DNA of 64,000 bases from Promethearchaeota archaeon (GCA_016839555.1 JAEOUA010000010.1:416001-480000), one strand, 5' to 3'. Shown: positions 30,926 through 35,582, counted from the first letter of the stretch. Program-made: numbers and translations. The notes: generated by a model not told the origin, from the letters alone.

Positions 30926-31726
30926 TCATTTAAATCCTTGTAAAAACGAATCAACATTCTTACCCAGCACATCATGGTTATATCCGCCTTCCATTAGAGC
31001 AAATCTCCGTCCCTTACATAATTTTTCTGAATATTTCTTCATCAATTCTCCTAAATGAGTGTAGTCCTCCGGATATAATAAACCACCCCAATCATCTATT
31101 CCCTGATCGAATCCCGCTGATGCGGCGAAAATATCAATATCTTTAAGATTATTCATATAAGTTTCTACTTCTTCAATATATTGTTGATTAGTAGAGGCAT
31201 CAGGATTCAATATCTCAACTTTAAACCTATCTTTTCGATTTGCAAGAATGTTAATATTTCCATTTCAAGAGATTATATGAAAGATATAATCTTCCCCTGT
31301 GTGCAAATCGAAATCCAATATGAACGCAGATTTGATCTTATTTTCAGAAAATAGTCTTAAGAGACTGATACTCATATTGTTAAAGAAGCAAAACCCCCAA
31401 CAAGAATTGGCAGAGGCATGGTGTCCTGGAGGTCTTATTAAAGCAAATGTTGGATTTCCTTCATATGCCTCTTCAGCAGCCAAGATGGCACCTCCAGCAG
31501 CTAAAGAAGCCATTTCAAATAAGAGATCTCTTCTTTTTATATAATTATAATGACTTTCTGTATGCGCTCTGAGAATATTTTCTTTTGAAGCGGGTTCTGG
31601 AGTAATTATTTCATATTCGGGGTTTTTAGAGAGTACATTCATTATGCTTTGAATCCTTCCGCTTGATGCGGCAGGGTCCATTGCATAGTCAGAAGTATAA
31701 AATTTTTCATGAAAAACAATTTTCAT
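30926..31726 (-). CDS. Histone deacetylase family protein, two exons (31726-31294 and 31263-30926), 256 aa after splicing
   Basis: RPPGHHA, GFCFFNN, DFDLHTG^DG, SAGFD, MEGGY motifs; both track ORFs are in the same frame, separated by a 30-nt insertion. Confidence 0.9.
31264..31293 (-). other. Candidate bulge-helix-bulge intron in an mRNA (30 nt)
   Basis: CA-CAGG-GG^A-AGAUUAUAU-CUUUC-AUAUAAUCU-CUUG-AA^A-UG; removal gives CAC ACA GGG GAT GGA = HTGDG. Confidence 0.82.
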
Positions 31727-35294: not shown

Positions 35295-35582
35295 TTACTC
35301 TTCTGGTGGAGCTAAGACGATTTCTATAGAAGAAACATTGTTAGTTGTACCATCATCACCCTCTAATTTCTCAGTATCTATTCGAATATCTTGATATGTG
35401 GTTCCCTTCAAGAAGCGATTTTTCAAAATTTCACAAACATCGACCGCATGAGAAATTGCTCTACCACGGGCTTTGACCACAACATCTTCACCTTTATTAA
35501 GTATCATCATAGCTGCCATTACGTAATTCATAGTAGGGCGGCGTCCGATATAAACCGCGTTTTCATCCTTATTTTTCGACAT
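35295..35582 (-). CDS. albA: DNA/RNA-binding protein Alba
   Basis: YIGRRPTMNYV, KARGRAISHAVDV, VSSIEIVL. Confidence 0.95.
   Translation of the reverse strand: MSKNKDENAVYIGRRPTMNYVMAAMMILNKGEDVVVKARGRAISHAVDVCEILKNRFLKGTTYQDIRIDTEKLEGDDGTTNNVSSIEIVLAPPEE

What the first reader, a model, noticed from the sequence alone, without database searches (positions are those of the whole stretch)
31255..31305. Bulge-helix-bulge intron inside a protein-coding gene, splitting the active-site motif of a histone deacetylase
Seen: the HDAC gene is broken by a 30-nt insertion containing an in-frame TGA. In mRNA sense it folds as outer pair CA/UG, central 4-bp helix CAGG/CUUG, 3-nt bulges GGA and AAA on opposite strands, and a perfect 9-bp inner stem AGAUUAUAU/AUAUAAUCU with a CUUUC loop. 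Cutting after the second base of each bulge, the rule for archaeal splicing endonuclease, removes 31293-31264 and joins G^AT. This gives DFDLHTGDGNIN, so the Asp codon of the HDAC DxDxHxGDG motif exists only after splicing. Established: EndA/RtcB splice BHB introns from tRNA and rRNA, and mRNA cases are rare, the classic one being crenarchaeal cbf5. Eukaryotic HAC1/XBP1 splicing also uses tRNA-ligase chemistry. Inference: this Asgard-like archaeon splices an mRNA with tRNA machinery, making deacetylase expression splicing-dependent and possibly regulated. Other 'split genes' in such genomes may hide similar introns. I cannot check whether this case is already published. The outer helix is short (2 bp plus imperfect extension).
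Basis: partly seen in the sequence, partly recalled or inferred. Interest (0 to 1): 0.95.

Follow-up and report, generated by a model that had tools for sequence, protein, structure and literature searches.

The report
tRNA-type mini-intron splitting Asgard deacetylase gene
A 30-base insert shaped like an archaeal tRNA intron breaks the active-site codons of a deacetylase gene in a Loki-type Asgard archaeon, and comparison with relatives shows that the mRNA almost certainly has to be cut and re-joined by the tRNA-splicing enzymes, which papers report for the coding sequence of only one other archaeal gene (cbf5).

Summary
On the minus strand, a 256-codon HDAC-family gene (30926-31726) carries a 30-nt insert (31293-31264) with an in-frame TGA. 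[quoted passage not shown] Cutting after the second base of each bulge joins G^AT and restores HTGDGN, a motif contiguous in 173 of 175 database homologs.

No RNA data could be obtained, so the support is comparative:
- 14 distinct alleles carry inserts of 28, 29, 30, 31, 32 or 33 nt at exactly this codon phase.
- All 14 keep the BHB geometry, although the inner stems differ in sequence (11 of 15 pairs show compensatory changes).
- Every complete gene gives a 255-257-aa ORF only after the predicted excision.
- Both exons are under purifying selection (dN/dS 0.04-0.19).

The genome encodes an alpha/beta pair of EndA paralogs, RtcB and Archease. ARAGORN calls introns in 17 of 28 tRNA genes. I confirmed four more BHB mini-introns in other protein genes of this genome.

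Most orthologs in the family lack the intron, so it has been repeatedly lost or gained. Regulation of the deacetylase by splicing is untested.

This scan has noted similar introns before, in other genes of this genome and in other Asgard genomes. I found no publication describing them.

The parts
31294..31726 (-). Exon 1 of the HDAC-family gene. It runs from ATG 31726-31724 to the first base (G) of the split Asp codon and encodes residues 1-144 plus one base.
   Evidence: ORF list and translation. Pfam PF00850 match, E 3.6e-26 for this part alone. Alignment A1.
31264..31293 (-). 30-nt BHB mini-intron (20% G+C) carrying an in-frame TGA at 31267-31265.
   Evidence: Sequence. It appears as a 10-column insert against 256-aa homologs. 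The same-site inserts in 13 other alleles keep the BHB geometry.
30926..31263 (-). Exon 2. It starts with AT of the Asp codon, encodes GNINIL...QGFK, and ends with the stop at 30928-30926.
   Evidence: Translation. Pfam PF00850 C-terminal part. Purifying selection on exon 2 in intron-bearing alleles.
31296..31299 (-). Central 4-bp helix H, 5' strand CAGG (exon 1). It pairs with CUUG at 31269-31266 (intron).
   Evidence: Compensatory changes at two of its four pairs in alignment A2.
31266..31269 (-). Central helix H, 3' strand CUUG (inside the intron).
31293..31295 (-). 5' bulge GGA. The predicted cut is between 31294 and 31293.
   Evidence: The BHB rule (cut after the second bulge base) coincides with the junction that homology requires.
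31263..31265 (-). 3' bulge AAA. The predicted cut is between 31264 and 31263.
   Evidence: Same as for the 5' bulge. The bulge is A(A/U)^A in all 14 alleles.
31270..31292 (-). Intron hairpin h': a 9-bp stem (31292-31284 with 31278-31270) and the 5-nt loop CUUUC (31283-31279).
   Evidence: Eight of its nine pairs show changes on both sides in A2.
31300..31301 (-). Outer exon-exon helix h, 5' strand CA. It pairs with UG at 31262-31261, giving only 2 bp.
   Evidence: The helix is paired 2/2 in all 14 alleles, and one allele (L017) has A-U replaced by G-C.

Best explanation
The insert is a bulge-helix-bulge intron in a pre-mRNA. The gene is transcribed with the 30 nt included. The RNA around the HTG|DGN codons folds into helix / 3-nt bulge / 4-bp helix / 3-nt bulge / helix. 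The archaeal splicing endonuclease EndA, here probably an alpha-beta heterotetramer, cuts after the second base of each bulge. RtcB, helped by Archease, joins the exons and probably circularises the 30-nt intron. Only the spliced mRNA encodes the 256-aa deacetylase with an intact DxDxHxGDG active-site loop. Unspliced mRNA stops after 153 residues and lacks the SAGFD and EGGY catalytic elements.

Shown here: the anatomy, its conservation and covariation, selection on both exons, and the presence of the enzymes.

Inferred: cleavage by EndA, ligation by RtcB, and the circular intron.
For: 1. Anatomy and junction. Excision gives HTGDGN and 256 aa, the length of about 97% of the listed homologs. 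The motif H.GDG is contiguous in 173 of 175 fetched homologs.

2. Fourteen distinct alleles from genomes and metagenomes carry inserts of 28-33 nt at the same phase, G^AY. In all 14, h is 2/2 bp, H is 4/4 (9 alleles) or 3/4 (5 alleles), and the bulges are NG^N and A(A/U)^A. Thirteen inner parts fold as plain hairpins and the two type F alleles as a hairpin with a 1-nt bulge.

3. Covariation on an ungapped 5-sequence alignment. 97.3% of cells are paired, against 32-43% when partners are slid. Eleven of 15 pairs show changes on both sides. None of 500 shuffles reaches the observed score.

4. The 28, 29, 31 and 32-nt alleles shift the frame. Every complete gene nevertheless yields a 255-257-aa ORF after the predicted excision.

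5. dN/dS is 0.04-0.19 in both exons between intron-bearing alleles, with synonymous sites near saturation. These genes have therefore functioned for a long time with the intron in place.

6. Machinery:
- Two EndA paralogs, each with N- and C-terminal domains. One is closest to chains 3p1z_B, 3ajv_B and 2zyz_B. I recall these as catalytic subunits of crenarchaeal heterotetrameric EndAs (from memory, not checked).
- RtcB at 563 bits.
- Archease.
- 17 of the 28 tRNA genes called by ARAGORN have introns.

7. Four more BHB mini-introns of 30-32 nt split conserved motifs in porB, AMP phosphorylase, argG and top6B of the same genome.

8. Precedent. The cbf5 intron of Crenarchaeota is cut by a heteromeric EndA and also lies between the first and second letter of a catalytic Asp codon (PMC2738675).
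Against: - No transcript evidence was obtained.
- The outer helix h has only 2 bp. The MFE fold prefers an alternative pairing of the 3' bulge and is not more stable than shuffled sequence (z -0.95).
- BHB-like shapes are not enriched over their mirror image genome-wide, so the structure alone proves nothing.
- Five alleles have one mismatch in the central helix, which means a relaxed motif that needs a broad-specificity enzyme.
- The alpha/beta assignment of the two EndA paralogs rests on sequence inspection and nearest PDB chains only.
Confidence: 0.88

Rival explanations
1. The gene is a pseudogene. A small palindromic insertion, such as a MITE-like element or a replication slip, inactivated it, and the BHB likeness is coincidental.
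For: There is an in-frame TGA and the active-site loop is split. Hairpins and BHB-like shapes are frequent in this AT-rich genome. Decayed HDAC 3' remnants do exist in some relatives.
Against: - Both exons are intact and under purifying selection in all intron-bearing alleles.
- The same site is occupied in 14 alleles, with covarying structure.
- The genome holds only this one match to the query deacetylase, so inactivation would remove it.
- The insert has no other copy in the genome and no target-site duplication.
- The chance of a strict BHB at the required position is about 2e-5.
Confidence: 0.03
2. The insert stays in the mRNA and the ribosome deals with it, by TGA read-through or recoding, programmed frameshifting, or translational bypassing over the hairpin as in phage T4 gene 60.
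For: A stop codon next to a stable hairpin resembles a bypass or recoding signal. The type B alleles (P0010, P0028) have no stop and are annotated as 266-aa proteins.
Against: - Insert lengths of 28, 29, 30, 31, 32 and 33 nt would each need a different recoding event.
- A hop from the Gly codon to the next GGN would skip the Asp-Gly of the invariant GDG, whereas every allele preserves the split codon G...AY.
- Read-through would put 10 unrelated residues into the loop after the metal-binding D-x-H residues, and what is conserved is base pairing rather than peptide sequence.
Confidence: 0.03
3. The insert is removed from the RNA, but not by EndA and RtcB. Another RNase that recognises the hairpin, or self-cleavage followed by some ligase, does the job.
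For: The outer helix is minimal and some alleles have an imperfect central helix. No enzymology has been done.
Against: - The two conserved 3-nt bulges, 4 bp apart on opposite strands, with the junction exactly after the second bulge base in all 14 alleles, are the specific signature of EndA substrates (PMC2738675).
- The insert is far too small for a group I or group II ribozyme.
- EndA, RtcB and Archease are all present, and the many tRNA introns imply that they are in use.
Confidence: 0.04
4. The gene is expressed as two separate polypeptides, an N-terminal 153-aa part and a C-terminal part from the TTG at 31210, which assemble into an active split enzyme.
For: ORFs of 153 aa and 94 aa are called on either side of the insert.
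Against: - The C-terminal ORF would lack GNINILANRKDRFKVEIL, and the GDG loop would never be formed.
- The stop-free type B alleles are not split at all.
- The frameshifting alleles place the downstream start differently in each case.
- No such split form appears among 175 homologs.
Confidence: 0.02

Closest known systems
BHB intron in the cbf5 (aCBF5 pseudouridine synthase) pre-mRNA of Crenarchaeota (Desulfurococcales, Sulfolobales; Watanabe 2002; Yokobori 2009, PMC2738675)
   Same: - It is a short intron inside a coding sequence with a BHB-like fold, often relaxed.
- It is cut after the second bulge base by a heteromeric EndA.
- It lies between the first and second letter of a catalytic Asp codon.
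- It is present or absent among close relatives, implying lineage-specific loss.
   Different: The gene (an HDAC-family deacetylase) and the phylum (Loki-type Asgard) are different. Here there are six unrelated intron sequence types, with six lengths, at one site. The intron is one of several in protein genes of the same genome. The cbf5 case has cDNA and in vitro proof, which this one lacks.
Archaeal tRNA and rRNA BHB introns (hBHBh' motif; Marck and Grosjean 2003)
   Same: The geometry is the same: two 3-nt bulges, a 4-bp helix and an intron hairpin. The size range is the same, since tRNA introns in this genome are 8-43 nt. The presumed enzymes are the same.
   Different: The exon half of the motif is made of codons (Thr-Gly-Asp-Gly) instead of a tRNA anticodon arm. 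The outer helix is only 2 bp, without a tRNA body to help recognition.
BHB intron in the 5' UTR of HVO_1309 mRNA, Haloferax volcanii (PMC7714728)
   Same: It is an mRNA processed by EndA at a BHB site. It was found as a circular RNA and confirmed in vitro.
   Different: That intron lies in the untranslated leader and does not interrupt a reading frame.
HAC1 / XBP1 unconventional mRNA splicing in eukaryotes (Ire1 plus tRNA ligase or RtcB)
   Same: It is non-spliceosomal excision of a short segment from a coding mRNA, it changes the protein made, and the exons are joined by tRNA-ligase chemistry (RtcB in animals).
   Different: The cut sites there are two 7-nt hairpin loops recognised by the stress sensor Ire1, not a BHB cut by EndA. 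That system is regulated, and nothing here shows regulation.

Membership tests
Archaeal BHB intron (EndA substrate) | [quoted passage not shown] | tested here: met
   The window has GGA / CAGG:CUUG / AAA. The same layout holds in all 14 alleles, with H at 4/4 bp in 9 and 3/4 bp in 5.
Archaeal BHB intron (EndA substrate) | Flanking helices h (exon-exon) and h' (intron) | tested here: met
   h' is 9 perfect bp, with 8 of 9 pairs covarying. h is only 2 bp but is paired in 14 of 14 alleles, with one A-U to G-C swap. This is the weak point: the motif is at the relaxed end.
Archaeal BHB intron (EndA substrate) | Cuts after the second base of each bulge give a functional joined product | tested here: met
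   The predicted junction G^AT restores HTGDGN and the 256-aa length. The same rule restores a 255-257-aa ORF in every complete allele, including the frameshifting ones.
Archaeal BHB intron (EndA substrate) | Cleavage by EndA and ligation by RtcB, with a circular intron, shown on RNA | not testable with these tools
   No RNA run could be listed. The genes for EndA (two paralogs), RtcB and Archease are present.
cbf5-type pre-mRNA intron | Lies inside a coding sequence whose frame or conserved motif exists only after removal | tested here: met
cbf5-type pre-mRNA intron | Orthologs with and without the intron at the identical site | tested here: met
   In the family, the gene was found in 104 of 135 genomes. 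About 97 are uninterrupted, and G000, G266, G226 (two copies), G173, G166 and G146 are interrupted at this site.
cbf5-type pre-mRNA intron | Host has a heteromeric, broad-specificity EndA | tested here: inconclusive
   There are two paralogs of 198 and 208 aa. One keeps a Y..H..K pattern and is closest to chains 3p1z_B, 3ajv_B and 2zyz_B. I recall these as crenarchaeal catalytic subunits (from memory, not checked). The other appears to lack the His. Subunit composition and specificity loops were not analysed.
Histone deacetylase / acetoin-utilisation (PF00850) family | Pfam domain match and catalytic motifs (GHH, DxDxH..GDG, SAGFD, EGGY) | tested here: met
   PF00850 matches at E 9.9e-34. The motifs RPPGHHA, DFDLHTG|DG, SAGFD and EGGYNH are visible in the translation and invariant in A1. 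The substrate (histone, Alba or other) is unknown.
HAC1/XBP1-type regulated splicing | Twin hairpins with 7-nt loops cut by Ire1 under stress | tested here: not met
   The structure is a BHB, not twin 7-nt loops. Ire1 was not searched for. The likeness is in ligation chemistry only.

The most novel reading that the evidence does not exclude
The HDAC intron is one member of a lineage-wide population of EndA-spliced mini-introns in Asgard protein genes, and these behave as mobile or re-inserting elements. Three observations point this way:
- Six unrelated sequence types occupy one codon phase.
- Within a type the intron is better conserved than the exons (30/30 against 86.6% CDS identity, and 29/31 against 69%).
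- Intron-bearing alleles sit next to intron-less sisters in the gene tree.

If this is right, tRNA-type introns spread between alleles and target conserved, glycine-rich active-site codons. Protein expression in the closest prokaryotic relatives of eukaryotes would then routinely depend on mRNA splicing by the tRNA machinery.
Probability: 0.3. Interest if true: 0.9.

Novelty: new member of a known kind. Interest (0 to 1): 0.8.

Why it matters
Papers available to me document splicing of an archaeal coding sequence by the tRNA endonuclease only for cbf5 in Crenarchaeota, plus one 5' UTR in Haloferax (PMC2738675, PMC7714728).

- A second, well-supported gene in Asgard archaea, together with at least four more in the same genome, suggests that protein-gene introns of this type are not a curiosity of one gene.
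- It bears on how intron-tolerant the archaeal ancestor of eukaryotes was, and on the ancestry of RtcB-dependent mRNA splicing.
- It has a practical consequence. Gene callers split such genes (here into 153 aa and 94 aa) or read the intron through as a false 10-residue insertion (P0010 and P0028 in public databases), so Asgard proteomes and "missing" or "broken" genes are mis-scored.
- The system is directly testable with a synthetic RNA of about 80 nt and three recombinant proteins.

Tried and rejected
- **RNA evidence.** No RNA holder was listed for the gene, so read laying could not be used.
- **Spliced-form proteins in the 5.8-billion-protein collection.** None was found. The best hit to the window's protein is 85-88% identical. 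The best 256-aa hit to the stop-free intron allele P0010 is 85% identical. No transcript-derived copy was therefore seen.
- **Genome-wide structure-only BHB scans.**
  - Counts equal those of the mirror-image control: 2374 against 2383, and for stems of at least 8 bp 357 against 320.
  - Adding an ORF-fusion filter gave 63 hits against 66-79 in length-shifted and mirror controls, because gene boundaries in operons mimic fusions.
  - This approach therefore cannot count mRNA introns. It recovered only HDAC and AMP phosphorylase among the true cases.
- **Fold energy.** It is not significant.
- **Further copies of the intron in the genome.** blastn-short found none, which argues against a repeated mobile element.
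- **Careful ML tree.** It did not finish in the time allowed, so only the quick tree is reported. It does not resolve single gain against multiple gains.
- **First dN/dS pass.** Exon-1 values for pairs with indels (A and C types) are inflated by my ungapped comparison. I rely on the equal-length pairs.
- **TGA read as W.** This was used only to obtain a search query, not as a hypothesis.

Full report
**What is there.** On the minus strand, an ORF starts at ATG 31726 and reads through the HDAC-family motifs to ...ILDFDLHTG. It then reads EDYIFHIIS and stops at TGA 31267-31265. The same frame continues NGNINILANR... to the stop at 30928-30926. Pfam assigns both halves to PF00850: E 9.9e-34 for the read-through, and 3.6e-26 and 5.1e-07 for the halves.

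In mRNA sense the region is CA-CAGG-GGA-AGAUUAUAU-CUUUC-AUAUAAUCU-CUUG-AAA-UG. The elements are:
- a 2-bp exon-exon helix;
- a 4-bp helix between exon 1 and the intron's 3' part;
- a 9-bp intron hairpin;
- two 3-nt bulges on opposite strands.

I first checked the handedness of this arrangement against the canonical tRNA case: anticodon stem, then 4 bp, then a bulge holding the 37/38 cut. In both, each strand reads central helix, bulge, flanking helix in the 5' to 3' direction, so it is the canonical layout and not its mirror image. Cutting after the second base of each bulge removes 31293-31264 (30 nt) and joins G^AT, giving CAC ACA GGG GAT GGA AAT = HTGDGN.

**Agreement with homologs.**
- The read-through protein finds thousands of homologs, almost all from Asgard MAGs named Promethearchaeota, Lokiarchaeota, Thor-, Hod-, Hermod- or Odinarchaeota, and nearly all are 256 aa.
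- In alignment A1 the window has exactly 10 extra columns between G-D and G-N. Removing the intron gives 256 aa.
- Among 175 fetched homologs, 173 have H.GDG contiguous.
- The two exceptions, P0010 and P0028 (266 aa), carry a stop-free 30-nt insert at the same place. Gene callers translated it as FISSRNET(I/E)N.

**Comparative test.** I searched with a degenerate pattern for the flanking codons separated by 12-42 nt.
- It hit 4 of 400 genomes of the phylum, all in the window's own family.
- It hit 9 metagenome contigs.
- A protein search of the family then added two alleles that the pattern had missed (G166 and G146).

Together these give 14 distinct alleles in six sequence types (A-F), with lengths of 28, 29, 30, 31, 32 and 33 nt.

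Taking the cut sites from the protein junction alone, every allele shows the following:
- h is paired 2/2;
- H is paired 4/4 (9 alleles) or 3/4 (5 alleles);
- the 5' bulge is NG^N and the 3' bulge is A(A/U)^A;
- the inner part folds as a hairpin (in the two type F alleles with a 1-nt bulge), although the stem sequences are unrelated between types.

On the ungapped alignment of the five distinct 30-nt alleles (A2), 97.3% of cells are standard pairs. The figure is 32-43% when the 3' partners are slid by 1-3 columns. Eleven of 15 pairs show changes on both sides, including two in the central helix and one (A-U to G-C) in the outer exon helix. None of 500 shuffles reaches the observed score. This alignment was not fitted to the structure.

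**The genes are alive.**
- After the predicted excision, every complete allele gives a 255-257-aa ORF. This includes the 28, 29, 31 and 32-nt alleles, in which the insert shifts the frame.
- Between intron-bearing alleles, dN/dS is 0.04-0.19 in both exons while synonymous sites approach saturation. One example is the two 29-nt alleles, with omega 0.07 in each exon.
- A pseudogene would not keep exon 2 open and constrained in a frame that only excision can reach.
- Recoding explanations fail because six different lengths would need six different ribosomal tricks. In addition, all alleles preserve the split Asp codon G...AY, which only RNA excision uses.

**Machinery.**
- The genome (3.74 Mb, 12 contigs, 92% complete) has two EndA paralogs with both Pfam domains.
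- The 198-aa paralog keeps a Y..H..K pattern. It is closest to chains 3p1z_B, 3ajv_B and 2zyz_B, which I recall as catalytic subunits of crenarchaeal heterotetrameric enzymes (from memory).
- The 208-aa paralog appears to lack the histidine, as a structural beta subunit would.
- A 2026 preprint reports two EndA paralogs in 44 of 60 Asgard genomes. Heteromeric EndA is the type that cuts relaxed motifs and the cbf5 pre-mRNA (PMC2738675, PMC5829648).
- RtcB (563 bits) and Archease are present.
- ARAGORN finds introns of 8-43 nt in 17 of the 28 tRNA genes it can call.

**Not alone in this genome.** Earlier notes of this scan listed other candidate mRNA introns. I located four of them by their protein motifs and read the DNA.

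| Gene | Place in G000 | Length | Features |
|---|---|---|---|
| porB | C6:79408-79438 | 31 nt | H UCCA/UGGA, 9-bp stem, 7-bp outer helix |
| AMP phosphorylase | C12:205678-205708 | 31 nt | restores DKHSTGGVPGNK |
| argG | C12:324996-325025 | 30 nt | splits the Asp codon of YSGGLDTS as G^AC |
| top6B | C5:511956-511987 | 32 nt | relaxed motif |

All four have the same architecture as the HDAC intron. None of the five introns has a second copy in the genome.

**Distribution and history.**
- In the window's family the gene was found in 104 of 135 genomes. About 97 are uninterrupted.
- The five other genomes of the window's genus in which the gene was found all lack the intron. The closest relative among them is G275, at 88% aa identity.
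- In a quick ML tree the intron-bearing alleles are scattered, several as well-supported sisters of intron-less ones. This requires either repeated precise loss, as argued for cbf5, or repeated gain.

One pattern is unexplained. Within a type, the intron is more conserved than the exons:

| Pair | CDS identity | Third-position identity | Intron identity |
|---|---|---|---|
| window vs L011 | 86.6% | 68.8% | 30/30 |
| window vs G166 | 69% | not computed | 29/31 |
| L018 vs L050 | 88.6% | 74% | 29/29 |

Between types, the inner stems share nothing. This fits either strong sequence-level constraint or lateral spread and re-insertion at one site. I could not decide between the two.

**Caveats.**
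- There is no RNA evidence. No RNA run was listed, and no spliced-form protein is in the large collection.
- The fold is not thermodynamically unusual (z -0.95). The MFE fold pairs the 3' bulge elsewhere.
- BHB-like shapes are no commoner than their mirror images in this AT-rich genome. My ORF-fusion screen was swamped by gene boundaries.
- The case therefore rests on position, covariation and selection. It does not rest on structure statistics.
- Regulation of the deacetylase by splicing, and any link to the Alba gene 3.6 kb away (35295-35582), are speculation.

**Comparison with what is known.** The mechanism proposed is that of the cbf5 pre-mRNA intron. It shares the intron phase (between letters 1 and 2 of a catalytic Asp codon, PMC2738675) and the presence/absence polymorphism. 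A 2020 study still called cbf5 the only such case besides a 5'-UTR intron in Haloferax (PMC7714728). My searches of the held library found nothing on protein-gene BHB introns in Asgard archaea, but subscription journals are not covered. Other agents of this scan have reported similar introns in other genes of this genome and in other Asgard genomes, some with RNA-derived contigs. I did not check those RNA claims.

**Verdict.** This is a real and very probably spliced BHB intron. It is a new member (new gene, new phylum) of a known but extremely sparsely documented kind.

Noticed in passing
L003:2260-3060 (P0010) and L004:2095-2895 (P0028): Public databases hold 266-aa 'histone deacetylase' proteins in which a stop-free 30-nt BHB intron has been translated as a false 10-residue insertion (FISSRNETIN / FISSRNETEN) in the active-site loop.
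   Followed up: yes
G000 C6:79408-79438, C12:205678-205708, C12:324996-325025, C5:511956-511987: Four further BHB mini-introns (31, 31, 30 and 32 nt) split conserved motifs of porB, AMP phosphorylase, argG and top6B in the same genome. Three have 9-bp stems, 5-6-nt loops and 3-nt bulges. The top6B intron is a relaxed form with a 6-bp stem.
   Followed up: partly
window 31264-31293 vs L011:3954-3983, L049:645-675; L018 vs L050: Within a sequence type the intron is better conserved than the exons around it (30/30 against 86.6% CDS identity; 29/31 against 69%). The six types at this one site share no stem sequence. Possible explanations are constraint on the intron sequence or lateral spread.
   Followed up: partly
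L053 (G180:C34), L054 (G263:C65), L056:302-604 (G226:C15): Decayed copies of the 3' part of the HDAC gene lie 1.5-3 kb downstream of the intact gene in three relatives. In G180 and G263 they start at about residue 112-140, carry stop codons, and begin near the intron site. The G226 copy covers residues 156-256.
   Followed up: partly
L052:194-930 (G214:C191): The HDAC ortholog of G214 changes frame at residues 99/100 (IRP|PGHH) without any insert. This is a frameshift or an assembly error, not an intron.
   Followed up: no
whole genome G000: ARAGORN calls only 28 tRNA genes in a 92%-complete genome, and 17 of them have introns. Many tRNA genes are probably missed because of multiple or non-canonical introns.
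   Followed up: no
window 35295-35582 (-): An Alba chromatin-protein gene (PF01918, E 2.4e-18) lies 3.6 kb upstream of the deacetylase gene, separated from it by unrelated genes. No operon link is visible.
   Followed up: partly
G226:C15 and G226:C155; G266:C271: One MAG (G226) carries two intron-bearing HDAC copies of different types (32 nt and 33 nt). The 33-nt intron and its flanking motif region are identical to those in G266. This points to a mixed bin or a recent transfer.
   Followed up: no
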